Counted from the first letter of the stretch, positions 37,708 through 52,019 are shown. The stretch is DNA of 64,000 bases from Candidatus Babelota bacterium (GCA_003511165.1 DOJW01000008.1:106010-170009); one strand, 5' to 3'. A program made the numbers and translations. Notes: generated by a model from the sequence alone, not told the origin.

Positions 37708-39186
37708 TTATCGCATATTATCTACCAAAAACTGCACCCACAAGGTGTTTTTGGCAAATTCTGTTTTCATGTAAGAATTATCAACATTAGAACTTTTTGG
37801 AAAATATATTGAAATACCTTTTGCTCTAGCAATATTTTTCCCAACAGTATTAGCTATAACAATTTTTTCAATTGCCTTCATTCCAACCCATAAATCATTT
37901 TTTAAATTTTCAATCTCACCAGATTTGAAATTAATATCACTCGACTCTGCAAGAAGCGTTAACTCATCCTCACTTGATACAATAGAAGATGAAATCTCGT
38001 CAAGTAGTGACATTGTATTATCTTGAACTTGCAATTCAACTTTATCTGATGATGTAGTCGATGTTAAATCCAAACAATTTGTTGGAGTTTCCGTAAGATC
38101 TTTAAAAACCAAATTTTCTCTATTTTCTACATCTTTAGAATTATTTAAAAATTCATTTGATATAACATAATTAACAAATCCATCATTTATTTCACTTGGA
38201 GACTTTTTACCAGCTTTTAATTGATTATAAAGTTCAGAATAAAAAGAATGTAAATCAACATAAATAGGAACATTAAATTGTGCGCAATTATTTCTAGCAG
38301 ATCTAATAACATTAGTAAAAGAGTTACCATAAAGTTTTTTACAATTTTGAATACCTATCAAAATTTGATTCAAATTATTTTTCAAAATTTCAATTTCACT
38401 AATATTTACAGCTGATTGTGTGTACCAATCAAATCGCTTTTCATAAAATCTTTTATAAGCATCAACAATTAGGTACCCAAGCTGCGAAGCGTTTAAACTT
38501 TTTGAATTTAAATCTTTAAATATTTCTGAGAAAAACCAACCATCTGCATGCTCTTGCTCTTGAGATGCAACCAAATATTCAACTCTATCTTTTATTTGAT
38601 AATCGGTTTCTAGCGATGCCATCAAACATGCATCAAGACCCAAAAGTTCTAATTTTTTACCACCCAAAACATCTCTTTTAATACCATCTAACATTTCAAC
38701 TAATTGCTGATTATTTAAATATGTTCTATTTTCCCAATCAAAAAGAATTCCTCGATTAGCAAAATAAGATGGATCTATAGGACCGCTTCCATGACCAGAC
38801 AAAATCAATGCATAATGTTTTGCAGGATATTTTGCAACACCCCATTTAAAAAAATCAATCACATCTTTTGCAATATTTTTACCTGTAAGCGCGGAAGTAT
38901 GATAATCCAAATCTATCGAGCCTTTTTGAACTTTGTATCGCCATGTTCCTATTTTTTTAGGTTGTTCCCACTGCACAACAACATTCAATTTATCGCTAGA
39001 ACCGACCTTTGCCATATCTCTTAAATTTTTGGCAAAAAAATTGTTTAAATCATTTTTTGTCTGTGCATAAACAAAAAATGACCACTCTGCTACCTTTACA
39101 TCTTTGAGAGCGTGTGCATTTAGCTGACAAAATACAAAAAATGTAATTATCAAAAATTTTAAAATAGATAATTTAGTTTTGTTCAT
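37708..39186 (-). CDS. secreted clostripain-family cysteine peptidase (MEROPS C11, clan CD)
   Basis: Signal LSILKFLIITFFVFCQLNAHA. Catalytic His block ALILSGHGSGP and Cys block LELLGLDACLMASLE, then YLVASQEQE. ATG 39186 with a GGGGGA RBS is preferred over GTG 39198. Confidence 0.75.
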   Translation of the reverse strand: MNKTKLSILKFLIITFFVFCQLNAHALKDVKVAEWSFFVYAQTKNDLNNFFAKNLRDMAKVGSSDKLNVVVQWEQPKKIGTWRYKVQKGSIDLDYHTSALTGKNIAKDVIDFFKWGVAKYPAKHYALILSGHGSGPIDPSYFANRGILFDWENRTYLNNQQLVEMLDGIKRDVLGGKKLELLGLDACLMASLETDYQIKDRVEYLVASQEQEHADGWFFSEIFKDLNSKSLNASQLGYLIVDAYKRFYEKRFDWYTQSAVNISEIEILKNNLNQILIGIQNCKKLYGNSFTNVIRSARNNCAQFNVPIYVDLHSFYSELYNQLKAGKKSPSEINDGFVNYVISNEFLNNSKDVENRENLVFKDLTETPTNCLDLTSTTSSDKVELQVQDNTMSLLDEISSSIVSSEDELTLLAESSDINFKSGEIENLKNDLWVGMKAIEKIVIANTVGKNIARAKGISIYFPKSSNVDNSYMKTEFAKNTLWVQFLVDNMR

Positions 39187-39363
39187 ACTATCCCCCACTT
39201 AATTAAAATACATTTATAACTTTATCCCCTTTTAATAAAGTATCGTTAATCAGAGATAAATAAGTCAATATTTACAAATAATCAATTTGTTTTAATGCTA
39301 AACAATAATATTTGAATAAAAGAGGAACTTAAAAAGATGTTTTTTTATCAAAAATTTACATTT

Positions 39364-41043
39364 TTAAGAAACTGAAGGGGTAATAAAAATTAAAAGTTGA
39401 TGATCTTTAATGTTTTTTCTAGTTCCTTTAAAGAGGTATCCAAAAAGAGGAATATTACTTATAAGCGGTATTCCAGCCTTATAATCATTTTTTGTATCTT
39501 CTATTAATCCGCCGATCATTGTAGTTTGCCCGCTTTTGAGGGCAACCCTACTGCTCGATCTTGTTGTAGCAATTGTCGGATATTTTGCACCCGCTGCCTG
39601 GGATGCGCTAGAATTTTCAACATAAATATCTAAAAAAATCGACTTTTTATCTGCAGAAACCAGCGGTTTTACTTTTAACTTTGTCCCCACATCTTTATAG
39701 GTAGCGGTTGTAATATCTCGCAAACTATCCGCAATTGTATCTTTTACAACAGCTTCTATTGGAATACTACTTCCCACCAAAATTTCTGCATCTTCTCCAT
39801 GATTTGTTAAAATCGAAGGCTTTAAAATTGTTTTTACATCTCCTTTTGTCTCAGCAGCATCAAGCTCTAAATTCAATCTTTTTGTATTTAAATCTTTACC
39901 ACCAAAAACAAACGGTAATTTAATCATTCTTCCAGCATCACCAGCCGCAGGGAAAAAATTTAACGCCCAATCAACCACATCGGCCGCAGACTGTGCAGCT
40001 GGAGCGTTTTTAATACCTTCAGAAGGATTACCTCCTCCTATAAACCCCCATCCACTTCCCATACTTGCTCTTCTGTTGTAAATTCCAGACCATCGAACGC
40101 CGAGACTTTCTTCAAAATCTTTATTTGCAATGACCATACGAACTTCGATTTTTACTTGTGGCAAAAAAACATCTATACCTTTCAAAAAACTTTTCATTTC
40201 GCCCACTTGGTGCACTCGACCTCTAAAAAGTATTTTTTTACTCAATTTATCACAAATCAAATAAAATCCTGTTTTCCCAAAATCTTCACCCAAGAGAGAT
40301 TTCCAAACGTTTTCAATATAAATCTTCACCTCATCGGTAAATTTAACATTGTTTAAAGTAATAAAATATCTTTCAAACTCTTCAGACTTTGCGCCCAAAA
40401 TTTTTCTTTTCAAAGATTCATAAATATTTGAAAGTTTTGCGACGCGATAAACATTCATCTCTTTAGTTAAAACTAGCTCTTCTTTGCTAAATGAAAACAA
40501 AATTTTCAAAAATGATGCAAGCGAAACATCTTTTAAATCTAAACTTGGTACCATCACATCAATATCAGGATCCACAACAAAATTTAATTTTGTTAATTTG
40601 CTAGCAAGCATTATCAAATCTGATATTTTTGTATTTTTCAAAGATATTGAAAGCTTTACAGCTAACTCTTTTTCATCAAATTGTTTTTCTAAATTTTTCC
40701 TAATCTCTCCATCAAAAAGCAATTCTTCTTTTTTAGAATGCTCTATGGCTAAAGCCTGTGGCAAATGGGTCAAAAATTTTTGAAATTTATTTTTATCTTT
40801 TGCAAGTATTTTGGCTTCAGCTTCAAGTTCTTTGTCCGAAGATTTAACAATTTTGCTAACAACATCTTGCACCATTGCGCGATCTTCTTTTTCCTTAATT
40901 TGCTGCTCGTTTTCTACCAAATCAGTAAGCAGTGGAGGAACTTGTGATAAATCAAAAAGCTCTTTAGGTATAATAGTTTCATCACAACAAACAAAACCAT
41001 AACTTAAAAATGAAATTAAAATTATTTTTAAAATTTTGCTCAT
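39364..41043 (-). CDS. pilQ: type IV pilus / type II secretion family secretin (PilQ-like)
   Basis: C-terminal secretin domain ...SGQTTMIGGLIEDTKNDYKAGIPLISNIPLFGYLFKGTRKNIKDHQLLIFITPSV. N-terminal signal. Follows PilO/PilP-like genes. Confidence 0.85.
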   Translation of the reverse strand: MSKILKIILISFLSYGFVCCDETIIPKELFDLSQVPPLLTDLVENEQQIKEKEDRAMVQDVVSKIVKSSDKELEAEAKILAKDKNKFQKFLTHLPQALAIEHSKKEELLFDGEIRKNLEKQFDEKELAVKLSISLKNTKISDLIMLASKLTKLNFVVDPDIDVMVPSLDLKDVSLASFLKILFSFSKEELVLTKEMNVYRVAKLSNIYESLKRKILGAKSEEFERYFITLNNVKFTDEVKIYIENVWKSLLGEDFGKTGFYLICDKLSKKILFRGRVHQVGEMKSFLKGIDVFLPQVKIEVRMVIANKDFEESLGVRWSGIYNRRASMGSGWGFIGGGNPSEGIKNAPAAQSAADVVDWALNFFPAAGDAGRMIKLPFVFGGKDLNTKRLNLELDAAETKGDVKTILKPSILTNHGEDAEILVGSSIPIEAVVKDTIADSLRDITTATYKDVGTKLKVKPLVSADKKSIFLDIYVENSSASQAAGAKYPTIATTRSSSRVALKSGQTTMIGGLIEDTKNDYKAGIPLISNIPLFGYLFKGTRKNIKDHQLLIFITPSVS

Positions 41044-41058
41044 TATAAGCTCACCCTT

Positions 41059-41352
41059 CTAGCTAAGATGCAGAGTAATTTTTTTATCATCATCTTCTAA
41101 AATCACATCCTCAAACCTTATTGATGTTACTTTATAATTTTCCACAGGATCAGTTGCAAAAACTATATAACTTTTTTTGCCACAAACGATAACCGCACCC
41201 ATTTTCTCATCCGACTTACAAACAGCCGACAATCGAAAATGTTCTTGAATATCTTTCTGCGATTTTGGACTGTTTACGAAAAATGGATCACGTGCATTTA
41301 CAGCCACACCAGATAATAAAAATGTTATAAATAAAAATTTAAAATTTTTCAT
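41059..41352 (-). CDS. PilP-like pilus assembly protein (short)
   Basis: Signal peptide, ARDPFF motif, then a beta-rich segment (GAVIVCGKKSYIVFATDPVENYKVTSIRFEDVIL). Positioned immediately upstream of the secretin. Confidence 0.5.
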   Translation of the reverse strand: MKNFKFLFITFLLSGVAVNARDPFFVNSPKSQKDIQEHFRLSAVCKSDEKMGAVIVCGKKSYIVFATDPVENYKVTSIRFEDVILEDDDKKITLHLS

Positions 41353-41921
41353 AATTTTGCAAAATCTATAAAATCAATAACCCTAAATAGTATTTCCACC
41401 TTTAAAAAACCACTATCCATGCGTTTGATCACCACTTGTTTAACTTTCAAAAAAGAACTTTTACTCGCTAGATAATCAAAAAAGGAAAACAAACTATCAA
41501 ATGAACCTTCCGCTTTTAATGAGAATAATTTTTTTGAATAAATTTTATCTTTAGCTTTTGTTGGCAGATTTATTTCTTCTAAGTCTAAAAATCTTAAATT
41601 TTTCTTTTCCAAATTTTCCAAAATTACTTTTATATGTTTTTCGACTTTCCACTTTTGGTTTACATTCGAAATTAAAAATTCATTCTCTTTATCCAGCTTT
41701 TGCAGCTCATCAAGTTTTGATTGTAACTGATTGCGTAAAGCTTCACCCTGCTGCAAAGAGTTATTTAGATTTGAAATATTTGAATTTATAGAATTGAAAA
41801 AGAAAATTTTAAAAATTAGAAATAAAATAACAATGACAAAAATTGGCATAAAAATTTTTGATTTCAACGATAAATCGCGTGCTAAAAAAATTAATTTATT
41901 TTCCCTAAAAATTATCGCCAC
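41349..41921 (-). CDS. PilO/PilN-like bitopic pilus assembly protein
   Basis: Single TM (IFMPIFVIVILFLIFKIFFF) followed by a coiled coil. Operon position before the PilP-like gene and secretin. GTG start; overlaps the next gene by 4 nt. Confidence 0.4.
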   Translation of the reverse strand: MAIIFRENKLIFLARDLSLKSKIFMPIFVIVILFLIFKIFFFNSINSNISNLNNSLQQGEALRNQLQSKLDELQKLDKENEFLISNVNQKWKVEKHIKVILENLEKKNLRFLDLEEINLPTKAKDKIYSKKLFSLKAEGSFDSLFSFFDYLASKSSFLKVKQVVIKRMDSGFLKVEILFRVIDFIDFAKL

Positions 41922-42160
41922 AAAAAATCCCGCTAAATTTTTATTATGAAATTGCGCAGTTGATTTTAAGAAATCAAAAAGTTGAAAGTAAAGGATAAAA
42001 ATAAAAAATCGGTAAAACTTTATTTAAAAGCTTTATCTCAAAAACTCAAAAAAGCTCCTAAACTATTATTATTATTATTATTTTCTTGATTTTTTCATCC
42101 CATTTTTTCTAGAAAAGATAAGGTAGTTAACTTTTAATTTTTAAAAAAGGAAAGACATAA

Positions 42161-45100
42161 ATGAAAGTTTCAAAAATTATAGTTTTAGCTTTGTTTATCG
42201 GAAGCATTTTGGGAAATATACGAATTAAATGCGGGGAAGAAGAAGAAGCAATATCCCGTGCAATTGCAAATATACAAAAAAACTACGACGACGAAATATT
42301 AAAACCATATGAACACAATTTAGAAGTTAATCTTAAAGCGATTAAAGAAATAGAAGGCAATATTAAACAAACTAAAAGCAATCTTGAAAAATCACAATCA
42401 CAAGATTCAATTGAATATCATAAATCACAACTGGTTGATCATGAAAAACGTCTTGAAAACGCAATAAAAATATACCTCGATACCATAGAAATTTTTTTAA
42501 AAAACGCAGAAAGTAGAAAAAATCTAATACTAGACGAAATAGCATATCATATCCAAAGAATAGCTAACCTTACACTACGCAAAGAATTAGACCTAAAACT
42601 AAAATTAGAAACAGATCAAATCACAGAAACAATAAGTAAAAAAAGAGCTCAACTTGAGGAAGAGATTAGACTCATACAAGAAGAAGCTAAACGCCTTAAA
42701 GAAGAAATTAAAATTGCAATCGAAAAAAAACAAAAAGAAGATGAACTCGCAAAAGAAAAAGCTAAAATTGAAGCTGAAGCTAAACAAAAAGAAGATGAAA
42801 CTACCTTGGGAAAACAAAAAAATATATTTAGAGATAATATACGCCTTCATTATTTTAAAATCGCTTGTGAAATACTTTCGGAAATAGAAAGTAAAAACCA
42901 AACTAATGATTTTTTTAAATCTATTTGGGACCCTTCTTTTGACATCAACTCAAAAGATAAAGATGAAAACACAATATTAATTGTTGCTGCGATGCATGGC
43001 CTTGATAAATTCGTTACATTTTTACTCGAAAATGGTGCTGATGCAAATGTAAAAGGAGAATATGAGAGAACGGTCTTCTTCTACCTTAACACTAAAAATA
43101 TTGCAATCATTTTGATTGATTGGTTGAAAAAAAATGGTTTAAATCCTGCTGAATATTTGAATGACCGAGACCTCGATGGAAATACGCCTTTAATGGTTGC
43201 AGCAATGCATAGTGCAACTGAGTCACTAAAAATTTTACTAGATAATGGCGCAAATATTAACGCAAGGAATAACGCTGGCCGCTCTTTTCTTCATTTTATT
43301 TATGCAAATCCAAAAGGTATTAGTTATTGGATCGAAATAGCCAAGACTACTGAGCTAACACCAACATTACCAACAATTGATGAATACTATCGAACCCCTC
43401 TATACTGCGCTTTAGAAGAAGGAGAAGATGTAACACAATTCACAAAAGAATTAGAAAAACAAAATGCTCCACTGTTTGGCACCAATAGCGAAGGTCAACC
43501 GGTCTTCCCATATGCTACAAATAATCCTGCTATTTTGGTTAAAGCATTAACCGAAGCTGTGCAAAAACAAAGTAGCATGGACGAGGAATCTCAGCAGCGT
43601 ATTTTGGGTGAAATTCTACTACCTTCAATTTTATTTCAACACCAAGTCTGTCTACCCCTTATAATAAAAGATCCAAAATTACTGCAAAATACTAAAAAAC
43701 TATTTAAAGAATTTGCACCTAAAAGAGTTGATGATTTTTTTGAAAAAACTATTAACGATGCTAAAAAGAATATTCCTCAAGTTCCTTTGCATCATTTAGC
43801 TATATTTATAGATAAAGATGATGAATGGGATGTCACTAATAAAGCTATGAGCGTAAAACTTACATCAATGCTTAAACAAGCAGGCACACCATGTCTCGTT
43901 ATAGGTGGCCATGTACTAAAACATGCGGCCACAAACCTGCATAAAGAAAAATTCGATTTTGAAAAAAACTTTTATTTTTTTACAATCAATGATGATAAAT
44001 TTTTTCCTGTTCTTGTTATTCCTAAAAATTATGCCGCAAGAAATGTAAGCGATAAATCTCTAATAAATTTGTCAAATTTATCTTGGCTAAGATCTTTAGG
44101 TTTTAACCCTAAAAATTTGGTTCATAAAAAATTTGCCAATATCGACTTCAGTAAAGAGCAAATAATTCCAACTAAAGAATTTGGGGAAAAAACTATTAAT
44201 CTGGTTAAAAATGTTTTGACTAATGTTAAAGAACGTGGACGAATTGTATATGTAAGCGGACATGGATATAGTTATATTCGACAAAAAATAGATACTATTT
44301 ATGAGCGTGCGGTAAACTTACCTTTAAACGCATTTTTTGATTTAATTAGAGAGTTAGAAGAAAAAGGCACATTGTTCACACACGTTTTAACATGTTACAT
44401 GGGGGGTGACAATTTATCAGCTTTGGAAAAAGTTATGATAAATGATTTTTACAATACAACGCTTGCAACTATGCTGGATACCCATCAAAAAACAAAAAGC
44501 ACTACTTCCGAAACTCATAATAAAATGTTTTTATCTGTTGCATCAACAGCAGATGTCTCAACAAGCGGAGACGTTGATACAAATTTATTCTTCCCAGCTG
44601 TCGATACGTTTTTCAACTTATTACGATCTGACGCAGTAAAAGATATGATGCCAAATCTATTTACTTGGCTTACAAGAATGTTTAGAACCGTTGGCGTTCG
44701 TAGAGATATTGTGAATTATCCACAAATCAGAATACCTGGTAATCAAACATCATTTTATCTTGCAGATATCCATGGAGACTTACAAATAATCAATAGAATG
44801 AACACCATGCAAGATCGCTTCACAATCGCACAAAAAGGGGATAAAAAAGTAGTTAAAATCAATAAACCAAAAGATATTGTCGTTACAAACAAAAATGTTT
44901 TGGTAACGTACATCGACCATGTCGAAAACAAAGTAATAATCGAAGATAAGGTACCTGTAATACTTGCCATGGGAACTAATGAATATTTCAGAACATTCAG
45001 TGAAATATTTGTAGACATACCTGAAATGGATTTTTTTAATTTTGCTTACAACAGTTTCTACCCTGCAGATTTTGGCGAAGAAATGGGTCATCGCGAAACT

Positions 45101-45781
45101 TATTTAATGAAAAAACTCACTTTTGCAAATGAAGATATTTTTGAAGATATTGATGTTCCACAAGAAATTGCTTCACAAAAACCACAGACTTTATACAACG
45201 TTTATCTCAAAAGAGGATTAGAAGAAAAAGCTGCTGTTATTTTTTCACTCGGACAAAATCCTACTGACGATGTTTTTGAGATAAATGAAGATAAAGTTGT
45301 AAGAAAACTCGAAGGCGAAGAGAAAGAACTTTATTTAGCTAGAGTTTCGGCAATGCAGGCAGAAGTTGGTCACTACTTTAGTCCACTAGAAGAAAAGCTT
45401 CTAAAAAATAGCGCTCTATTCTTACAAGAAAATAAACAAGATTTGGCAAAAGTATTTAAAACCGCATTAGTAAAAAGTGTTGTTTTGAGTGGAAGAGATT
45501 GCGATAAATTATTGTTATCATATTTAAAACTTCTTGATACAACTACAGATGAAGAAATATTAACTTCGCTCAAAGAACTTCTTCCTTTTTTGATGCAAAA
45601 TTACAAAGAAATTCCATCATGGACACTGCTTGAAAAAATGAAATTTGTAATTTTAAGTTTCAAAGAACTAAAAAAGGAAACAGTCGAAACTTTCGAAAAA
45701 ATAATAGATAAACTTTTTGAATTCGATGAGAAAAATAAAAAAGCATTAAAAGATCTACTAAAGAAAATTACAGTTAAATAA
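42161..45781 (+). CDS. giant secreted protein A: signal peptide, Glu/Lys coiled coil, ankyrin repeats, clan CD-like His/Cys domain, helical C-terminus
   Basis: 1206 aa. MKVSKIIVLALFIGSILG; ANK blocks DENTILIVAAMHGLDKFVTFLLENGADANV and DGNTPLMVAAMHSATESLKILLDNGANINA; RIVYVSGHGYSY (His701, nt 44261-44263) and FTHVLTCYMGG (Cys745, nt 44393-44395). Confidence 0.85.
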   Translation: MKVSKIIVLALFIGSILGNIRIKCGEEEEAISRAIANIQKNYDDEILKPYEHNLEVNLKAIKEIEGNIKQTKSNLEKSQSQDSIEYHKSQLVDHEKRLENAIKIYLDTIEIFLKNAESRKNLILDEIAYHIQRIANLTLRKELDLKLKLETDQITETISKKRAQLEEEIRLIQEEAKRLKEEIKIAIEKKQKEDELAKEKAKIEAEAKQKEDETTLGKQKNIFRDNIRLHYFKIACEILSEIESKNQTNDFFKSIWDPSFDINSKDKDENTILIVAAMHGLDKFVTFLLENGADANVKGEYERTVFFYLNTKNIAIILIDWLKKNGLNPAEYLNDRDLDGNTPLMVAAMHSATESLKILLDNGANINARNNAGRSFLHFIYANPKGISYWIEIAKTTELTPTLPTIDEYYRTPLYCALEEGEDVTQFTKELEKQNAPLFGTNSEGQPVFPYATNNPAILVKALTEAVQKQSSMDEESQQRILGEILLPSILFQHQVCLPLIIKDPKLLQNTKKLFKEFAPKRVDDFFEKTINDAKKNIPQVPLHHLAIFIDKDDEWDVTNKAMSVKLTSMLKQAGTPCLVIGGHVLKHAATNLHKEKFDFEKNFYFFTINDDKFFPVLVIPKNYAARNVSDKSLINLSNLSWLRSLGFNPKNLVHKKFANIDFSKEQIIPTKEFGEKTINLVKNVLTNVKERGRIVYVSGHGYSYIRQKIDTIYERAVNLPLNAFFDLIRELEEKGTLFTHVLTCYMGGDNLSALEKVMINDFYNTTLATMLDTHQKTKSTTSETHNKMFLSVASTADVSTSGDVDTNLFFPAVDTFFNLLRSDAVKDMMPNLFTWLTRMFRTVGVRRDIVNYPQIRIPGNQTSFYLADIHGDLQIINRMNTMQDRFTIAQKGDKKVVKINKPKDIVVTNKNVLVTYIDHVENKVIIEDKVPVILAMGTNEYFRTFSEIFVDIPEMDFFNFAYNSFYPADFGEEMGHRETYLMKKLTFANEDIFEDIDVPQEIASQKPQTLYNVYLKRGLEEKAAVIFSLGQNPTDDVFEINEDKVVRKLEGEEKELYLARVSAMQAEVGHYFSPLEEKLLKNSALFLQENKQDLAKVFKTALVKSVVLSGRDCDKLLLSYLKLLDTTTDEEILTSLKELLPFLMQNYKEIPSWTLLEKMKFVILSFKELKKETVETFEKIIDKLFEFDEKNKKALKDLLKKITVK

Positions 45782-45788
45782 AGATTAA

Positions 45789-45825
45789 AGTGGTATGAAT
45801 TTTTTTAAATTCATACCACTTTTTA
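45789..45825 (+). terminator. rho-independent terminator of giant gene A
   Basis: Stem AGTGGTATGAAT 45789-45800 / ATTCATACCACT 45809-45820, followed by tttt. Confidence 0.8.
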
Positions 45826-45879
45826 TAAGTTCATAAATACTAATTAAATATAAAAACTTCTGCTCTCTAAAATACCACA

Positions 45880-45946
45880 TTTTTGATTTCAACGATAAAT
45901 CGCGTGCTAAAAAGATTAACTTATTTTCTCTAAAAATTGTCGCCAC
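45880..45946 (-). pseudogene. duplicated 5' fragment (about 22 codons) of the PilO-like gene, created by the tandem duplication
   Basis: The minus strand reads GTG GCG ACA ATT TTT AGA GAA AAT AAG TTA ATC TTT TTA GCA CGC GAT TTA TCG TTG AAA TCA AAA, which is M-ATIFRENKLIFLARDLSLKSK. The intact gene reads MAIIFRENKLIFLARDLSLKSK. Confidence 0.85.
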
Positions 45947-48900
45947 AAAATGTCCCACTAAATTTTTATTATGAAATTGCGCAGTTGATTTTAAGAAATT
46001 AAAAAGTTGAAAGTAAAGGATAAAAATAAAAAATCGGTAAAACTTTCTTTTAAAGCTTTACCTTTAAAACTCAAAAAAGCTCCTAAACTATTATTATTAT
46101 TATTATTATTTTCTTGATTTTTTCATCCCATTTTTTCTAGAAAAGATAAGGTAGTTAACTTTTAATTTTTTAAAAAGGAAAAACATAAATGAAACTTGCA
46201 AAAATTATAGTTTTAGCTTTGTTTATCGGATGTATTTTGGGAAATATACAAAGTGCGAATGGTGATATTGAAAAGCAAATAAATCAAAGGGTTGAACAAA
46301 TTCAAAAAGATTACGAAGCTGCTCTAAAACACAATGAAGAATATTTAAAACGCTATGATGAACCAATAAAACGATATGAAAATGAAATAAAACAAATAAA
46401 AATCAAACTTGAAAAAGTTAAATCAGAATTTGGATCTCTTTGGGGCGAAGAATATAAATCGCAATTAATTTACGCTGAAAAACATCTCGAAGATACAAAG
46501 ACTGATCGCATAAAAACAAAAGAACTACTATTACAACAAGCAAAAGCTCATAAAAAATCCGCCGAAAAAGAATTAAAAGAAGATATTGAAAGACATGCTC
46601 GCGGAATACAATTCGAAGAATTTAGATTAAGAGAACAAGCAGAAGATGCCGCTCGAATAGAAGCAATAAGAAAAGAACAAGCAAAACTTGAAGAAGAAAG
46701 AAAACTCCGAGAAGAAGCTAGACTCAAAGAAGAAGCAAAAAAACTAGAAAAAGAAAAAGAAGAAAAACAAAATCCATTTAGAACAGAAATAAAAAAGCAC
46801 AACTTTGAAGGAGCGTTTGAAATTTTGAAAGAGATAGATCCTAAAAATCAAACTAATGACTTTTTCAAATCTGTTTGGGATGGTTCTGTTGATATTAACG
46901 CAAAAGACGAAGAAGGACAAACAGCTTTAGGATTTACAGTAAGTTATGGAAATAGCAATTTACTTTCTTTTTTACTCGATAATGGCGCAGATATTAATGC
47001 GAAAGATGGTTACGACAACACTGTATTTTTTCACATTGGAAATAAAAACATTGCAGAAATTTTAATCAATTGGTTGAAAAAAAATGGTTTAAACCCTGCT
47101 GAATATTTAAATGCAAAAAATCTCAATGGAGATACTCCATTTATCAATACTGTTGCAAGGAAACAAAATTCTGATCTTTTAATATATTTATTAGAAAATG
47201 GAGCAAGTATTGATACAAGAAACAACAATGGTCAAACAATCCTGCATTTTGCTAATGACAATCCAAATCAAATTGAATTTTGGACAAAAGTTACACAAAG
47301 CGCGCAAATAGCCAATATCTTATCGTTCATAGATGAATACTCAAGAACACCGCTTTATACCGCACTAGAAGAAGATGAACCTGTTAAAAAAAATGCACCA
47401 AAATTTGCAGCCGCACTTGAAAAACAAAACGCACCACTGTTTGGAACTAATAATGAAGGTCAACTAGTCTTTCCATATGCTACAAATAATCCTGCTATTT
47501 TAGTTAAAGCATTAACCGAAGCGATGCAAAAGAAAAGTAGCATGGACGAAGAATCTCAGCAGCGTATTTTGGGTGAAATTCTACTACCTTCAATTTTATT
47601 TCAACACCAAGCCTGTCTACCTCTTATAATGAAAGATGCACAGCTACTGAAAAAGACTCGCGAATTATTCAGAGAATTTGAACCCAAAAGAGTTAATGAT
47701 TTTTTTGAAAAAACTATTAACGATGCTAAAAAGAATATTCCTCAAGTTCCTTTGCATCATTTAGCTATTTTCATTGACCAAGATGGCGAATCACATGGAC
47801 CAAGAGCAGTAAGTTTGAATCTTGTAAGAATTCTTCAAAATAAAAAAGAGCCTTGTCTTATCTTCGGTAAACATTTATTATTTAATGCTGACTTTATAAG
47901 AAAAGCAGATAAAATCGATTTGGATTTAGAAAACAGTTTTCATTTTTTCATTGTTAATAATAATCAATCCGCTGTGCTTATCATCCCAAAAGAATATATA
48001 AAAAGTTTTATCCCTTCTACAATAAAATTATCAGATATTGCTATTCTTAGATGGCTAGGGTTTAACCCGCAAAGCTTAACTCACAAAAAATTTTCAAAAA
48101 TAGATTTAAAGACAAAAAGCGATATCTCTGCTGATGAATTTGGCAAACAAACTGTCGAATCGATAAAAAATGTTTTGACCAACGTCAAAGAGCGTGGACG
48201 GATTGTTCAATTAGAAGGTCATGGCTGGAGTTATTTAAGGCAAAGAAAAAACCCTACAAATGCTATCGCTGTAAATCTTTCTCTACCTTACTTTTTAGAT
48301 TTGATTAGAGATCTAGAAGAAAAAGGCACACTGTTCACATATGTTCTAACTTGCTACATGGGAGGCGATAATTTATCCGCTTTGGAAAGGGTTATGATCA
48401 ATGATTTTTATAATACTGAACTTGCTAAGATGCTGAATGCTCACCAAAAAACAAAAAGTGCTACTCCCGAAACTCACAATAAAATGTTTTTATCTGTTGC
48501 ATCAACTGCAGATATATCAACAAGTGGAATGGTAGATACCAATTTATTTTTCCCAGCTGTCGATACGTTTTTCAATTTATTAAAATCTGACGCAGCAAAA
48601 GATATGACGACCAATTTATTTGCCTGGATTACAAGAATGTTTAGAACCGTCGGAGTTTTAAGAGATATAGTCAATTATCCACAAATTAGAATCCCTGGCA
48701 ATCAAACATCATTTTACCTTGCAGATATCCATGGAGACTTACAAATAATCAATAGAGTAAACAGTATGCAAGATCGCTTCATAATAGTGCAAGAAGGAGA
48801 TAGAAAAGTAGTTAAAGTCAATAAGCCAAAAGATATTGTCGTTGCAAACAAAAATGTTTTGGTAACATACATAGATCATGTCGAAAACAAAGTAATAATC

Positions 48901-49743
48901 GAAGAAAAAGTACCGGTAATACTCGCCATGGGAACTAATGAATATTTCAGAACATTCAGTGAAATATTTGTAGACATACCACAAATGGATTTCTTTAATT
49001 TTGCATACAACAGTTTTTACAAAAATCCTTTTGCGGAAGAAATGGGCCATCGCGAAACTTATTTAATGAAAAAACTCACTTTTGCAAATGAAGATATTTT
49101 TGAAGATATTGATGTCCCACAAGAAATCGCATCACAAAAAGCTCAGACTTTGTACAACGTTTATCTCAAAAGAGGATTAGAAGAAAAAGCTGCTGTTATT
49201 TTTTCACTCGGACAAAATCCTACTGACGATGTTTTTGAGATAAATGAAGATAAAGTTGTAAGAAAACTCGAAGGCGAAGAGAAAGAACTTTATTTAGCTA
49301 GAGTTTCGGCAATGCAGGCAGAAGTTGGTCACTACTTTAGTCCACTAGAAGAAAAGCTTCTAAAAAATAGCGCTCTATTCTTACAAGAAAATAAACAAGA
49401 TTTGGCAAAAGTATTTAAAACCGCATTAGTAAAAAGTGTTGTTTTGAGTGGAAGAGATTGCGATAAATTATTGCAGTCATATTTAAAATTTCTTGATACA
49501 GCTACAGATGAAGAAACATTAAATACGCTCAAAGAACTTCTTCCATTTTTGATGCGAAATTACAAAGAGATTCCTGCATGGACACTACTTGAAAAAATGA
49601 AATTTGTAATTTTAAGCTTCAAAGAACTAAAAAAGGGAACTGTCGAAACTTTCGAAAAAATAATAGATAAACTTTTTGAATTCGATGAGAAAAATAAAAA
49701 AACATTAAAAGATCTTCTTAAAAAAATCACAATATCAAAGTAA
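45881..49743. repeat. tandem segmental duplication, unit 2 (through the stop of giant gene B)
   Basis: Collinear with 41853-45781. The 3' flank of unit 1 is not found after 49743 but reappears at 50861-50972. Confidence 0.9.
46189..49743 (+). CDS. giant secreted protein B, paralog of A
   Basis: 1184 aa. MKLAKIIVLALFIGCILG; ANK blocks; RIVQLEGHGWSY (His678, nt 48220-48222) and FTYVLTCYMGG (Cys722, nt 48352-48354). The C-terminal third is nearly identical to A. Confidence 0.85.
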   Translation: MKLAKIIVLALFIGCILGNIQSANGDIEKQINQRVEQIQKDYEAALKHNEEYLKRYDEPIKRYENEIKQIKIKLEKVKSEFGSLWGEEYKSQLIYAEKHLEDTKTDRIKTKELLLQQAKAHKKSAEKELKEDIERHARGIQFEEFRLREQAEDAARIEAIRKEQAKLEEERKLREEARLKEEAKKLEKEKEEKQNPFRTEIKKHNFEGAFEILKEIDPKNQTNDFFKSVWDGSVDINAKDEEGQTALGFTVSYGNSNLLSFLLDNGADINAKDGYDNTVFFHIGNKNIAEILINWLKKNGLNPAEYLNAKNLNGDTPFINTVARKQNSDLLIYLLENGASIDTRNNNGQTILHFANDNPNQIEFWTKVTQSAQIANILSFIDEYSRTPLYTALEEDEPVKKNAPKFAAALEKQNAPLFGTNNEGQLVFPYATNNPAILVKALTEAMQKKSSMDEESQQRILGEILLPSILFQHQACLPLIMKDAQLLKKTRELFREFEPKRVNDFFEKTINDAKKNIPQVPLHHLAIFIDQDGESHGPRAVSLNLVRILQNKKEPCLIFGKHLLFNADFIRKADKIDLDLENSFHFFIVNNNQSAVLIIPKEYIKSFIPSTIKLSDIAILRWLGFNPQSLTHKKFSKIDLKTKSDISADEFGKQTVESIKNVLTNVKERGRIVQLEGHGWSYLRQRKNPTNAIAVNLSLPYFLDLIRDLEEKGTLFTYVLTCYMGGDNLSALERVMINDFYNTELAKMLNAHQKTKSATPETHNKMFLSVASTADISTSGMVDTNLFFPAVDTFFNLLKSDAAKDMTTNLFAWITRMFRTVGVLRDIVNYPQIRIPGNQTSFYLADIHGDLQIINRVNSMQDRFIIVQEGDRKVVKVNKPKDIVVANKNVLVTYIDHVENKVIIEEKVPVILAMGTNEYFRTFSEIFVDIPQMDFFNFAYNSFYKNPFAEEMGHRETYLMKKLTFANEDIFEDIDVPQEIASQKAQTLYNVYLKRGLEEKAAVIFSLGQNPTDDVFEINEDKVVRKLEGEEKELYLARVSAMQAEVGHYFSPLEEKLLKNSALFLQENKQDLAKVFKTALVKSVVLSGRDCDKLLQSYLKFLDTATDEETLNTLKELLPFLMRNYKEIPAWTLLEKMKFVILSFKELKKGTVETFEKIIDKLFEFDEKNKKTLKDLLKKITISK

Positions 49744-49794
49744 TATACTTACAAAGCGTCAATTATTAAAAAATATTTAAAGAAAGGTCTTAGT

Positions 49795-50343
49795 ATGAAT
49801 AAGTTAAATAAAATACTGTTTACAATGGTTGCAACGCTAATGTTTTCAAGTTATCCAATCAGCGCTCAAAGACAAATAACAACTATAGTAAAAGTAATAA
49901 ATAAGACACAATATGAAGCTCACATCTCATGTCTATGTGGAGATGGTTCTGTAGAAAAAGTAGTTTTACCACAAAGTGAAATGTCTGTGTATGGTAGATA
50001 TGATATATCTATGAAGTTCGACATGCCTATATTTCAGATTATTGGTGTTTCACGATGGGTACCAGTATCAAACCGCTCCATATATTCGTATTTATCTCTT
50101 GATAAAAATGGTGAAACAATTGAAGAAAATTTAATTAAAGAAACTCGAAAGATCATAGCGCTTGATGAAGGAAGAGGCAAATTGCTTACTGATTGGAACG
50201 AATGTTTATATATATCAAAAGCTGCCATCTTGATTATTGATTGTGATGGAAGTTTACATATAAAGGAATATGCAGTACTTGATGATCAAAAAGATCTTGA
50301 AGGACTATCCCAAGCTCAGACAATTTTACACGGAATAGATTGA
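49795..50343 (+). CDS. small secreted hypothetical protein S1 (paralog of 51537..52019)
   Basis: Signal MNKLNKILFTMVATLMFSSYPISA; ITTIVKVINKTQYEAHIS...; ends TILHGID. The 25-nt leader is identical to that of S2. Confidence 0.7.
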   Translation: MNKLNKILFTMVATLMFSSYPISAQRQITTIVKVINKTQYEAHISCLCGDGSVEKVVLPQSEMSVYGRYDISMKFDMPIFQIIGVSRWVPVSNRSIYSYLSLDKNGETIEENLIKETRKIIALDEGRGKLLTDWNECLYISKAAILIIDCDGSLHIKEYAVLDDQKDLEGLSQAQTILHGID

Positions 50344-50362
50344 AATTTCTCTAAAAATAAAA

Positions 50363-50394
50363 AGGCGGTAAAGATTTTAAAATCTTTACCGCCT
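50363..50394. terminator. 32-bp perfect palindrome hairpin after S1 (bidirectional terminator candidate)
   Basis: AGGCGGTAAAGATTTT|AAAATCTTTACCGCCT. Confidence 0.6.
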
Positions 50395-50461
50395 AATACT
50401 TAGAATAGACCTCTTTTGAAACCTTTAGCTATCTTAGTCAGACTCTTGAATTTTTACTTCC

Positions 50462-50510
50462 GTTCGCCCTGAGCGAAGCCATTCTATGGCGTAGTCGAAT
50501 GGGTGCGAAC
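50462..50510. repeat. GC-rich compound hairpin element downstream of the GIY-YIG gene
   Basis: Outer stem GTTCGCCC / GGGTGCGAAC and inner stem GCCAT-tct-ATGGC. A GC-rich island in AT-rich spacer. Confidence 0.5.
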
Positions 50511-50563
50511 TTCTTTATTTTAATATCAGGGATTTATAATTTTGAATTGATTCATGCTTAAAC

Positions 50564-50839
50564 CTACTTTTTATCCCTGTTTGCTAATGCTTGCCATCCC
50601 CCTGAAATAAGTAATTCCTTTTTTACTCGAGTCCATTTTTTCATTTGTCTTTCTGCCATAAGCGCTTCATATCTAGTAGCAAAGGCTTGTGTAAAGACTA
50701 TCTGAATTGGAAGTCTTGAACTTGTATACCCACTATACTTTCTAAATTTATGTTCCGAAATTCTTTTTTCAAGATTATCAGTATGCCCTATGTAGTAGGA
50801 ATTATCATCACATTTGAGTATGTAAACATAAAATGACAA
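50564..50839 (-). CDS. GIY-YIG nuclease superfamily protein (UPF0213/YhbQ-like), apparent TTG start
   Basis: (M)SFYVYILKCDDNSYYIGHTDNLEKRISEH (GIY...YIG motif), ...RQMKKWTRVKKELLI. AGAAGG RBS 7 nt before the TTG. Confidence 0.85.
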   Translation of the reverse strand: MSFYVYILKCDDNSYYIGHTDNLEKRISEHKFRKYSGYTSSRLPIQIVFTQAFATRYEALMAERQMKKWTRVKKELLISGGWQALANRDKK

Positions 50840-50844
50840 CGTAT

Positions 50845-50862
50845 AACCTTCTTAAGAAGGTT
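50845..50862. repeat. 18-bp perfect palindrome AACCTTCTTAAGAAGGTT abutting the GIY-YIG start
   Basis: Read directly. It contains the putative RBS of the GIY-YIG gene and lies at the junction with the orphan flank. Confidence 0.8.
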
Positions 50863-50972
50863 ACAGTCAAATAAAGATTAAAAGGGGTATGAATTTTTTG
50901 GAATTCATACCCCTTTTTGTAAGTTCATAAATGCTAATTAAATATAAAAACTTCGGCTCTCTAAAATACCAC
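50861..50972. repeat. orphan copy of the 3' end plus terminator flank of giant gene A (aligns with 45768-45878)
   Basis: ttacagtcaaataaagattaaaaggggtatgaattttttggaattcatacccctttttgtaagttcataaatgctaattaaatataaaaacttcggctctctaaaataccac compared with the A flank. The terminator hairpin at 50884-50918 keeps pairing through compensatory changes. Confidence 0.85.
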
Positions 50973-51072
50973 CTCCACGGCACTTATCATTACCCACATC
51001 TTTTACTAATCTAAACTTTTATGATTTTATATGAAAATAAACATTTTTATGTATGTTAAATATACATCACCT

Positions 51073-51351
51073 CCTGTCGTCCTTGCGTAAGCGAGGATCC
51101 AGTTTTCATGCATTTATCAAAAGTAGTATCAAAATGAAAAATTATTACGTATATATTCTATGCTCTAAAACAAATGGAACTTTATATATTGGTGTGACAA
51201 ATAATATTGCAAGACGAATTTATGAGCACAAAAACAAGTTAAACATTGGTGCCGTGAGTAGAAGTTACAATTAATCGAAGCCTCAAATCCAAAAATGGAA
51301 AGAAATTAATTGAAATTAAAACTGGATCCTCGCTTACGCAAGGATGACAGG
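51073..51351. mobile_element. 279-bp element bounded by 34-bp terminal inverted repeats and carrying a decayed GIY-YIG gene (MITE-like)
   Basis: Left IR 51073-51106 cctgtcgtccttgcgtaagcgaggatccagtttt. Right IR 51318-51351 aaaactggatcctcgcttacgcaaggatgacagg. The reverse complements differ at one position. Confidence 0.7.
51134..51309 (+). pseudogene. GIY-YIG nuclease pseudogene (internal deletion or frameshift)
   Basis: MKNYYVYILCSKTNGTLYIGVTNNIARRIYEHKNK then a premature stop at 51272-51274. A -1 frame continues LIEASNPK..., resembling the family C-terminus (LIE..NP.W). The central ~40 aa of the family are missing. Confidence 0.7.
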
Positions 51352-51386
51352 AAAAGTTGTTTTGCGGTTTTTTAAATTTAATTTAA

Positions 51387-51506: not shown

Positions 51507-51536
51507 AGCCAAAAAATATTTAAAGAAAGGTCTTAT

Positions 51537-52019
51537 ATGAATAAGCTTAAAAAAATGCTGCTTATATTTATTACTATTTTAGGATTTGCAGTTATTACAA
51601 TTAATGTTGAGGGTAAAATAACAAAAATAGTAAGCGTAATTAATAAAACAGCTGCTCCTGTTCATATCTCACGTTCAATATATGATGGTTCCATAGAAAA
51701 AGTAGTTCCGGCTTTCGAGGAAATGCTTTTGGGTGATGATATGTATATGGATAACGACTTCAATAGTTCTCGACCGCATTATATGACAGTTTCACGAATG
51801 GTCTTAGATCAAATTTGTACAACAATGATATATGCTAATGGAAGCGGTAGTATAATTGAAAATAATAAAAATAGCATAGGACATTTTCATAACGACAGAT
51901 TTAGATTGATTATTCACCGTGATGGAAAGTTGGAGGCAGAAGAGCCTTATGACATTTATAATGACAAATATCTCGAAAGATTGCGTGACGCTGATACAAT
52001 TTTACACGGAATACACTAA
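51537..52019 (+). CDS. small secreted hypothetical protein S2 (paralog of 49795..50343)
   Basis: Signal MNKLKKMLLIFITILGFAVITINVEG; ITKIVSVINKTAAPVHIS...; ends TILHGIH. Confidence 0.7.
   Translation: MNKLKKMLLIFITILGFAVITINVEGKITKIVSVINKTAAPVHISRSIYDGSIEKVVPAFEEMLLGDDMYMDNDFNSSRPHYMTVSRMVLDQICTTMIYANGSGSIIENNKNSIGHFHNDRFRLIIHRDGKLEAEEPYDIYNDKYLERLRDADTILHGIH

What the first reader, a model, noticed from the sequence alone, without database searches (positions are those of the whole stretch)
45196..45514. 319-bp perfectly identical tract inside otherwise mosaic paralogs: gene conversion alongside N-terminal diversification
Seen: 45196-45514 (gene A) and 49155-49473 (gene B) show no difference in my manual comparison. 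Neighbouring C-terminal sequence differs at scattered sites. The N-terminal coiled-coil parts (A about 42230-42830, B about 46260-46790) are barely alignable. A central segment (A about 43830-44180, B about 47790-48150) is also strongly diverged. Other short identical islands exist, for example 43741-43805 and 47703-47767. Inference: there is concerted evolution of the catalytic and C-terminal modules, combined with diversifying or replaced N-terminal and central modules. That fits a modular effector with a constant enzymatic part and variable targeting parts.
Basis: seen in the sequence. Interest (0 to 1): 0.55.

Follow-up and report, generated by a model that had tools for sequence, protein, structure and literature searches.

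The report
Gene conversion between tandem ankyrin paralogs
Two neighbouring copies of a large secreted ankyrin-repeat gene in an uncultured Dependentiae (TM6) bacterium share a 321-base stretch that is letter-for-letter identical, most likely because one copy recently overwrote the other there (gene conversion), which is a well-known process seen here in an uncharacterised protein family.

Summary
Chance does not explain it (0 of 20,000 permutations; third-codon-position P about 2e-10). Constraint does not explain it either: this stretch is the least conserved part of the protein between lineages (30-55% aa). Three other assemblies of the same organism end their contigs 23 or about 100 nt inside the tract, at its exact boundaries, as expected for a true exact repeat. 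Two further assemblies erase the flanking A/B differences, giving 777 bp of identity. That looks like repeat collapse, so the extent of the tract depends on the assembly.

The best explanation is recent ectopic gene conversion between tandem paralogs, on top of an older mosaic. The promoter plus signal peptide, a linker and the 3' 1.4 kb are homogenised (dS 0.2-0.4). The coiled-coil/ankyrin region and the centre are saturated (dS above 1).

No catalytic domain is recognisable by Pfam, PDB sequence search or Foldseek. Of the only candidate motif (family-invariant GHG...C), the His lies in a diverged block and the Cys in the transition zone at its edge. This is an ordinary mechanism in an unstudied, Dependentiae-type ankyrin protein family.

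The parts
42161..45781 (+). Gene A (1206 aa): signal-peptide-like N-terminus, K/E-rich helical region, ankyrin repeats, about 650-aa C-terminal region without a known family
   Evidence: ORF list. Pfam finds only Ank, at aa 222-380. Identical to NCBI HBS48436.1, Candidatus Dependentiae bacterium.
46189..49743 (+). Gene B (1184 aa), tandem paralog of A, 65% aa identity overall
   Evidence: Corresponds to HBS48437.1.
45194..45514 (+). Identical tract, copy in A (codons 1012-1118). It spans the end of the beta-rich domain and the first helices of the helical domain.
49153..49473 (+). Identical tract, copy in B (codons 989-1095)
41854..45878 (+). Tandem-duplication unit 1 (4025 bp). Its left edge is at 41854, and the junction with unit 2 is at 45878/45879.
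   Evidence: Similarity starts abruptly at 41854/45879 (D4/D6). The unit's right end 'AAAATACCAC' recurs at 50972.
41854..42221 (+). 5' homogenised block in A (B copy: 45879-46249): upstream non-coding DNA, start codon and signal peptide, 94% identical, ending sharply about 20 codons into the ORF
42222..43453 (+). Diverged block 1 in A (B copy: 46250-47418): K/E-rich helical region plus ankyrin repeats, 44-46% nt differences, dS 0.8-1.3
43454..43803 (+). Middle homogenised block in A (B copy: 47419-47768), dS 0.38. It includes the 73-bp exact run 43731-43803.
43804..44332 (+). Diverged block 2 in A (B copy: 47769-48291): N-terminal half of the alpha/beta domain that carries the invariant GHG. 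Here A-B distance equals A-outgroup and B-outgroup distance.
44333..45756 (+). 3' homogenised block in A (B copy: 48292-49715), 7-12% nt differences, dS 0.28-0.41 outside the tract. By dS its true left edge is somewhere in 44330-44530.
44261..44263 (+). His701 codon of A (B copy: 48220-48222), in the GHG motif invariant in 24 family members
44393..44395 (+). Cys745 codon of A (B copy: 48352-48354), invariant in 24 family members
45787..45822 (.). Palindromic hairpin just after the stop codon of A; probably a bidirectional terminator
50846..50972 (+). Orphan copy of the last about 27 nt of the gene, plus hairpin and downstream DNA (92% to 45787-45878). It is probably the original 3' end of unit 2, displaced by a 1.1-kb insertion.
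   Evidence: (D7)

Best explanation
The 321-bp tract is the footprint of a recent non-reciprocal homologous recombination event (ectopic gene conversion) between two tandem paralogs 3,959 bp apart. A patch of about 300 bp of one copy was copied into the other, erasing roughly 30-35 pre-existing differences (inferred from the approximately 10% flank divergence).

It is the youngest layer of a mosaic. Promoter plus signal peptide, a linker and the 3' 1.4 kb were homogenised earlier (dS 0.2-0.4). The coiled-coil/ankyrin part and the first half of the central alpha/beta domain have escaped homogenisation and are as far apart as either copy is from other lineages.

The likely dynamics are inferred, not shown. 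RecA-type recombination keeps acting where identity is still high enough, while segments that drifted or were selected beyond that threshold stay independent. The two proteins therefore keep a common expression and export signal and a common C-terminal part, but have different N-terminal (presumably target-binding) parts.

Shown: the identity, its statistical excess, the dS tiers, the distance pattern against outgroups, and corroboration of the tract boundaries by other assemblies. Inferred: the recombination mechanism, the direction of transfer (unknown), and any selective value.
For: - Exact 321-bp run.
- 0 of 20,000 permutations reach it (longest 144). Analytic P is about 1e-14, and third-position P is 2e-10.
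- dS is 0 in the tract against 0.41 and 0.28 in the flanks and above 1.2 in the diverged blocks.
- Against three outgroup lineages the tract region is the least conserved part (30-38% aa to A/B, 40-55% among the outgroups), yet A = B at 100%. Constraint therefore cannot explain the identity.
- In the centre A-B (51% aa) is about equal to A-O1 (52%) and B-O1 (50%). From about 44411 onward A-B is 86-100% against 30-64% to the outgroups. This is the distance signature of concerted evolution.
- The non-coding upstream DNA is 94% identical next to coding DNA at about 55%.
- There is no Rfam match and no unusual RNA folding in the tract (z = -0.05).
- Independent contigs L005, L006, L007 and L008 are 100% identical to the window. 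They end 23, 23, 23, 99 and 101 nt inside the tract, measured from its boundaries 45194, 45514 and 49153. De Bruijn-graph contigs behave this way at a true exact repeat.
Against: - No reads were available, so the interior of the tract could hide a few collapsed variants.
- Two other assemblies (L003, L004) show that assemblers can and do homogenise these paralogs.
- There are only two paralogs, and no second species carries both orthologs. A proper segment-wise phylogeny or GENECONV/RDP test was therefore impossible.
- The three older similar blocks have similar dS. This would also fit a single, more recent duplication followed by replacement of the divergent segments.
Confidence: 0.8

Rival explanations
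1. Assembly artefact. The true A and B copies differ inside the tract, but the short-read assembler threaded one variant path through both copies (repeat or bubble collapse).
For: L003 and L004 are assemblies of samples SAMN03203003 and SAMN03203005. Each differs from the window at 58 sites, all at A/B-distinguishing positions and all carrying the paralog's base. This gives 777 bp of A = B (44966-45742) with a different block choice in each assembly. Every switch point is an exact run of at least 56 bp. That pattern is typical of k=55 bubble merging (this last point is my own knowledge of assemblers).
Against: - The window keeps dense differences right up to both edges of the tract.
- Contigs from two other assemblies with different apparent k (overhangs of 23 and about 100 nt) stop exactly k-1 into the tract at 45194, 45514 and 49153. 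The flanks therefore really do merge there in the read graphs.
- L007 and L008 show that at least the first 99-101 nt are shared.
- Both collapsed assemblies also carry the same 321 bp.
Confidence: 0.1
2. Nucleotide-level purifying selection. The tract holds an element constrained at the DNA or RNA level (embedded RNA, regulatory site, or a mobile insertion present in both genes).
For: Identity extends to all 107 third-codon positions.
Against: - There is no Rfam match in the tract even at E up to 1.
- RNA folding is no better than shuffles (z = -0.05).
- The stretch is ordinary in-frame coding sequence, homologous to the outgroups at only 30-38% aa. It is therefore neither an insertion nor conserved across lineages.
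Confidence: 0.02
3. For the older mosaic (not the 321-bp tract): the tandem duplication itself is fairly recent (dS about 0.3-0.4). The two divergent segments were later replaced by recombination with distant alleles or paralogs (module swapping), rather than having escaped repeated conversion after an old duplication.
For: - The three separate similar blocks have similar dS (0.38, 0.41, 0.28; signal peptide 0.23).
- There is a very sharp 5' boundary at the end of the signal peptide.
- The duplication junction at 45878/45879 is clean.
- The outgroup O1 resembles B at 'GPRAVSL' but A further on, which hints at mosaicism among lineages.
Against: - The other block edges are gradual rather than sharp.
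- The divergent segments have the same base composition as the rest.
- No donor sequence is known.
- This model still needs a separate recent conversion to explain dS = 0 in the tract.
Confidence: 0.3
4. A programmed variation system. Frequent segmental conversion between the copies generates protein variants within the population, as in antigenic-variation cassettes.
For: - Assemblies from different samples disagree only at paralog-distinguishing sites.
- In L003, site A:45682 carries B's base while 45678, only 4 nt away, stays A-type. Simple bubble collapse does not produce that.
Against: - Both copies are full-length ORFs with nearly identical promoters, so there are no silent cassettes.
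- The disagreement pattern follows exact runs of at least 56 bp, as an assembler artefact would.
- Four other contigs are 100% identical to the window.
Confidence: 0.05

Closest known systems
Ectopic gene conversion / concerted evolution of duplicated bacterial genes (reviewed by Santoyo & Romero 2005, cited in PMC4209131; classic case tufA/tufB, from my own knowledge)
   Same: Non-reciprocal patch homogenisation between paralogs in one genome. Identity tracts far exceed the flank expectation. Paralogs are closer to each other than to relatives in other lineages.
   Different: Only parts of the gene are homogenised here. Other parts are saturated, so the result is a mosaic rather than whole-gene concerted evolution. 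The organism is an uncultured Dependentiae, and the evidence comes from metagenome assemblies only.
Segmental gene-conversion variation systems (Anaplasma msp2/p44, Neisseria pilE/pilS, Borrelia vlsE; my own knowledge, p44 context in PMC1366493)
   Same: Short conversion tracts move between related gene copies of a surface or secreted protein in a host-associated bacterium.
   Different: Those systems have one expression site plus many promoterless silent cassettes, and conversion creates diversity. Here there are two complete, separately promoted genes, and conversion removes diversity.
Expanded host-interaction gene families of amoeba symbionts (Parachlamydiaceae PEX/NEX families, PMC4209131)
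   Same: Tandem arrays of large eukaryote-like-repeat proteins in protist-associated bacteria.
   Different: Those families were found to follow birth-and-death evolution with only minor recombination. This pair shows clear partial homogenisation.
Signal-peptide-bearing ankyrin-repeat proteins of Dependentiae (Chromulinavorax destructans: 98 ANK proteins, 78% with signal peptide, PMC6561590; TM6 genomes, PMC4776705)
   Same: Same phylum. Same architecture of an N-terminal export signal followed by ankyrin repeats. Presumed host-interaction role.
   Different: A and B add an approximately 650-aa C-terminal region of a rare family (26 hits among 1.84 billion representative proteins) with no Pfam model and no structural neighbour.
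Clan CD cysteine peptidases (caspase/clostripain/legumain type; my own knowledge)
   Same: Invariant His-Gly directly after a beta strand and invariant Cys directly after the next-but-one strand, about 44 residues apart ('VSGHG' ... 'LTCYMGG').
   Different: No HMM hit to any peptidase family. There is no significant Foldseek match: MALT1 reaches only E about 1 with the full-length model and is absent from the listed (top-50) hits with the domain model. hhalign against the neighbouring C11 peptidase gave nothing.

Membership tests
Ectopic gene conversion between paralogs (concerted evolution) | An identity tract significantly longer than the divergence of the flanks predicts | tested here: met
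   The run is 321 bp. The permutation maximum was 144 in 20,000 and the analytic P is about 1e-14.
Ectopic gene conversion between paralogs (concerted evolution) | Synonymous divergence collapses in the tract relative to neighbouring codons | tested here: met
   dS is 0 over 107 codons against 0.41 and 0.28 in the flanks. Third-position P = 2e-10.
Ectopic gene conversion between paralogs (concerted evolution) | The identity is not explained by functional constraint (the segment is not unusually conserved between lineages) | tested here: met
   The tract region shows 30-38% aa identity between A/B and three outgroups, and 40-55% among the outgroups. This is the lowest of all segments.
Ectopic gene conversion between paralogs (concerted evolution) | Phylogenetic incongruence: paralogs group by genome in converted segments and by ortholog in unconverted ones | tested here: inconclusive
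   Only the distance pattern is available. A-B is about equal to A-O and B-O in the centre, and A-B is far closer than either is to O in the 3' part. No second genome with both orthologs was found.
Ectopic gene conversion between paralogs (concerted evolution) | The repeat is real in the genome and not an assembly product | tested here: inconclusive
   Supported indirectly by contig breaks at k-1 inside the tract in L005-L008. However, L003 and L004 show collapse of the flanks. Reads were not available.
Ankyrin-repeat proteins (Pfam Ank, Ank_2-5) | Significant matches to ankyrin repeat HMMs above the gathering score | tested here: met
   A: Ank_2 54.7 bits, Ank 51.8 bits. B: Ank_5 50.5 bits, Ank_2 50.7 bits.
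Clan CD cysteine peptidases | Conserved His and Cys, each following a beta strand of the central sheet | tested here: met
   G140-H141-G142 and C185 are invariant in 24 and 18 sequences. They follow strands E134-139 and E177-183 in the model.
Clan CD cysteine peptidases | Sequence-profile match to a clan CD family (C11, C13, C14, C25, C50, C80, CHAT) | tested here: not met
   No such Pfam or NCBIfam hit for A, B or 22 remote homologs, even at E up to 5. hhalign against the neighbouring C11 gene gave probability 0.2%.
Clan CD cysteine peptidases | Caspase-hemoglobinase fold | tested here: not met
   Foldseek against the PDB found no hit with E <= 0.001, either for the full model (pLDDT 83.5) or for the domain model (pLDDT 74.8). 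MALT1 appears only at E about 1.
Clan CD cysteine peptidases | Proteolytic activity dependent on the His/Cys pair | not testable with these tools
   This needs biochemistry.
Cassette-type antigenic variation systems | One expressed locus plus promoterless, partial donor cassettes | tested here: not met
   Both copies are complete ORFs preceded by 94%-identical upstream regions.
Sec-exported proteins | N-terminal signal peptide | not tested
   The hydrophobic N-termini 'MKVSKIIVLALFIGSILG' and 'MKLAKIIVLALFIGCILG' were seen in the sequence. No signal-peptide predictor was available.

The most novel reading that the evidence does not exclude
The C-terminal 650 residues of A and B define a new, Dependentiae-restricted enzyme family fused to ankyrin repeats. 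It has an invariant GHG...C pair and folds that match nothing in the PDB or BFVD. Its tandem copies also undergo ongoing segmental conversion that is still polymorphic in natural populations. The hints for this are the disagreement between assemblies from different samples and the single site A:45682. Under this reading the locus is a live example of effector homogenisation and diversification in an uncultured parasite of protists.
Probability: 0.12. Interest if true: 0.6.

Novelty: new member of a known kind. Interest (0 to 1): 0.3.

Why it matters
Biologically, this is a clean, well-bounded case of partial concerted evolution in Dependentiae. That phylum is known almost only from metagenomes, and its many secreted ankyrin proteins are presumed host-manipulation factors (PMC6561590, PMC4776705). 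The case shows which parts of such a protein are kept in step: the expression and export signal and the C-terminal domains. It also shows which parts are free to diverge: the coiled coil, the ankyrin repeats and half of the central domain. That gives a hypothesis about where target specificity resides.

Practically, it is a warning. Different assemblies of the same population give three different versions of these genes (321 bp against 777 bp of identity, or broken contigs). Paralog mosaics in MAGs therefore need read-level validation before evolutionary conclusions are drawn.

Tried and rejected
- Identifying the C-terminal region: Pfam at E up to 5, NCBIfam, and PDB sequence search with 3- and 18-sequence profiles all failed. 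The only weak PDB sequence hit was an NMN adenylyltransferase at E 0.006 over 100 residues, judged to be chance. Foldseek of two models against the PDB and one against BFVD also gave nothing.
- Clan CD protease: the motif and strand topology fit, but profile and fold tests failed. I keep it only as a lead.
- Other paralogs in the window: tblastn of A finds only B plus weak ankyrin matches at about 4.0-4.5 kb and 8.6-9.0 kb. The 1221-aa ORF at 20848-24513 is unrelated.
- Species carrying both orthologs: the scan of one genome per species found a single truncated locus (L002). The metagenome scan found none. The word-indexed search found one truncated homolog.
- Embedded RNA or regulatory element in the tract: rejected.
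- A lipoprotein signal: B has 'FIGC' but A has 'FIGS', so it is not a conserved lipobox (read from the sequence).

Full report
WHAT IS THERE. The finding lies in two adjacent + strand ORFs, A (42161-45781, 1206 aa) and B (46189-49743, 1184 aa). The window is AT-rich (about 31% GC). A is identical to a hypothetical protein of a Candidatus Dependentiae metagenome-assembled genome (HBS48436.1), and B to HBS48437.1. Both proteins begin with a hydrophobic signal-peptide-like segment. This is followed by a K/E-rich, proline-poor region (48-56% charged or Gln residues), ankyrin repeats (the only Pfam hits), and about 650 residues without any family assignment. Upstream, on the other strand, lie a PilO-like gene, a secretin and a clostripain-family (C11) peptidase.

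CHECK OF THE OBSERVATION. The two stated intervals are 319/319 identical, and the exact run is 321 bp (45194-45514 = 49153-49473).
- N-terminal part: 50-64% nt identity.
- Centre: 51-63%.
- 3' part: 78-100%.
The real run is 43731-43803 = 47696-47768, 73 bp.

A three-state HMM places the blocks as follows:
- 41854-42221: similar, 5.9% differences.
- 42222-43453: diverged, about 45%.
- 43454-43803: similar.
- 43804-44332: diverged, 43%.
- 44333-45193: similar, 12.5%.
- 45194-45514: identical.
- 45515-45756: similar, 7.4%.
- The last 22 nt: diverged.

IS IT MORE THAN CHANCE OR CONSTRAINT? I shuffled differences within codon-position classes inside the similar 3' block. This never produced a run above 144 in 20,000 trials. 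The analytic expectation is about 1e-14, and the 107 third positions alone give P = 2e-10.

dS (Nei-Gojobori) falls into three tiers:
- Above 1.2 in the ankyrin region, the centre and 44201-44470.
- 0.23-0.41 in the signal peptide, the linker, 44471-45190 and 45515-end.
- 0 in the tract.

Outgroups: P0003/L001 (50% identical, truncated), L002 (Candidatus Babeliales MAG, truncated) and P0004/P0039 cover the C-terminal region. Across all pairs of lineages the tract segment is the least conserved part: 30-38% aa to A/B and 40-55% among the outgroups, against 50-63% for the segment before it. Selection on the protein therefore cannot explain 100% identity. No RNA family and no unusual RNA structure sit in the tract. 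In the first 190 residues of the C-terminal region, A-B (51%), A-O1 (52%) and B-O1 (50%) are equidistant. Downstream, A-B is 86-100% against 30-64% to the outgroups. This is the distance signature of partial concerted evolution.

IS IT AN ASSEMBLY ARTEFACT? The protein clusters revealed five other assemblies of the same organism.

L003 and L004 are ENA records, named for SAMN03203003 and SAMN03203005. Each differs from the window at 58 positions over 15-23 kb. All 58 fall at A/B-distinguishing sites, and all carry the paralog's base. In both records A = B over 777 bp (44966-45742), but with different block choices. Every switch occurs at an exact run of at least 56 bp (56, 60, 61, 68, 73, 321), and never at the next-longest run of 39 bp. 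That is what merging of paralog 'bubbles' at k = 55 would give (an inference from how de Bruijn assemblers work).

L005 and L006 (GCA_003520785.1), L007 (GCA_000989255.1) and L008 (JGI 3300001242) behave differently. They are 100% identical to the window and stop inside the tract:
- L005 ends at 45216, 23 nt in.
- L006 runs from 45492 (23 nt before the tract's end in A) to 49175 (23 nt into B's tract).
- L007 ends at 45292 and L008 at 45294, about 100 nt in.

Contigs that end k-1 bases into a repeat, at three separate boundaries and with two different apparent k values, show that the four flanks really converge at 45194/49153 and diverge at 45514. They also confirm the window's phasing of the flank blocks. 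I conclude that the window's version is the least collapsed one and that the tract is real. Only reads can exclude a few hidden variants in its interior. One detail does not fit simple collapse: L003 has B's base at A:45682 but A's base 4 nt upstream. This may be a real polymorphism.

WHAT IT IS AND HOW IT WORKS. Similarity begins abruptly at 41854/45879 and unit 1 ends at 45878, so this is a head-to-tail duplication of a 4,025-bp unit. The non-coding upstream 307 bp and the signal peptide are 94% identical. Identity collapses to about 55% within a few codons of the predicted mature N-terminus.

The most economical reading is repeated homologous recombination between the two direct repeats. 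The 321-bp tract is the latest non-reciprocal patch: differences at 45193 and 45515-45517 bound it to at most 321 bp. The dS 0.2-0.4 blocks are older events, or possibly the duplication itself. A rival model for the older layer is a younger duplication followed by replacement of the divergent segments. It cannot be excluded, because the three similar blocks have similar dS. It still needs a separate recent conversion for the tract. The direction of transfer cannot be determined.

THE PROTEINS. A full HMMER scan of 1.84 billion representative proteins found only 26 relatives (E <= 1e-3) of the C-terminal region. Of the 24 sequences aligned, 13 carry ankyrin repeats, and JGI names several of them 'ankyrin repeat protein'. 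Six columns are invariant across these 24: G700-H701-G702, C745, P854 and P932 in A numbering.

AlphaFold models are confident (pLDDT 83.5 for residues 561-1206, and about 90 in the core of the first domain). They show three parts:
- An alpha/beta domain in which the His follows strand 134-139 and the Cys follows strand 177-183.
- A beta-rich domain.
- A helical bundle.

That His/Cys arrangement recalls clan CD peptidases (my own knowledge). However, no profile or fold search supports membership. I rate 'His/Cys hydrolase of some kind' at roughly 30%.

His701 (44261-44263) lies in the diverged centre. Cys745 (44393-44395) lies in the transition zone, where dS is still saturated. The tract (residues 1012-1118) straddles the beta-to-helical domain junction. 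The homogenised part is thus not 'the catalytic module'. It is constant only within this genome.

COMPARISON WITH WHAT IS KNOWN. Gene conversion between duplicated bacterial genes is textbook (Santoyo & Romero 2005, cited in PMC4209131). Signal-peptide ankyrin proteins are the hallmark presumed effectors of Dependentiae (PMC6561590, PMC4776705). Large effector families of other amoeba symbionts were reported to evolve mainly by birth-and-death with little recombination (PMC4209131). A clearly homogenised pair is therefore a modest contrast. It is not a cassette-type variation system, because both copies are complete and separately promoted.

VERDICT. The gene-conversion interpretation is supported (about 0.8). 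The 'constant enzymatic part / variable targeting parts' reading is only partly supported. The mechanism is ordinary. The protein family is uncharacterised and rare. The assembly-dependent versions of the locus are a useful caution. Interest 0.3; new member of a known kind.

Noticed in passing
window 49744-50972: Between the stop codon of B and an orphan copy of the gene's original 3' end plus terminator (50846-50972, 92% to 45787-45878) lies a 1.1-kb insert. It carries a small signal-peptide-like ORF (C1, 49795-50343, 182 aa, no Pfam hit) and a GIY-YIG nuclease ORF on the minus strand (50564-50839, PF01541 E 1e-16). B's last few codons differ from A's, while the orphan matches A. B's 3' end therefore seems to have been rebuilt by this insertion.
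   Followed up: partly
window 51537-52019 and 49768-49792 / 51511-51535: ORF C2 (160 aa) is a diverged paralog of C1. Both have the same 25-nt ribosome-binding region (100% identical) and the same C-terminal 'TILHGI' motif. The function of this secreted-looking pair next to the A/B array is unknown.
   Followed up: no
window 51072-51352: A 38-nt inverted repeat (95% complementary; arms 51072-51109 and 51315-51352) encloses what looks like a decayed GIY-YIG N-terminus ('MKNYYVYILCSKTNGTLYIGVTNNIARRIYEHKNK', read by eye, followed by stops). It may be a small degenerate mobile element.
   Followed up: no
L003 and L004 (window 43647-43730, 45515-45682, 48981-49152, 49474-49637): Two public assemblies of the same organism replace whole blocks of A/B-distinguishing sites with the paralog's version (58 sites each). 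The deposited protein sequences of these genes therefore differ between databases (P0031, P0032, P0002, P0035 against the window). This is probably k=55 repeat collapse.
   Followed up: yes
window 45682 (L003 position equivalent): In L003, copy A has T (B's base) at 45682 although 45678 keeps A's base. Block collapse does not explain this. It may be a real polymorphism or a micro-conversion that extends the 60-bp exact run 45683-45742.
   Followed up: no
L001:1-2006, L002:1-1087; P0004, P0039, P0008, P0028: Every close relative outside this species is recovered only as a C-terminal fragment cut by a contig end inside the gene. This could mean that multi-copy, partly identical paralogs break assemblies in those lineages too. 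The 12 codons before P0003's called start read 'SGPRAVSLDL', which resembles B rather than A, whereas further on P0003 resembles A.
   Followed up: partly
window 37708-41921 (minus strand): Divergently transcribed from gene A are a PilO-like gene (weak match), a 97-aa ORF, a secretin (PF00263, E 1e-39) and a clostripain-family C11 peptidase (E 8e-33). Profile comparison shows the peptidase is not detectably related to the A/B central domain.
   Followed up: partly
window 43119-43158 / 47069-47108: A 40-nt nearly identical island (1 difference) sits inside the otherwise diverged ankyrin region ('WLKKNGLNPAEYLN' in both proteins). It could be a short conversion patch or a constrained motif.
   Followed up: no
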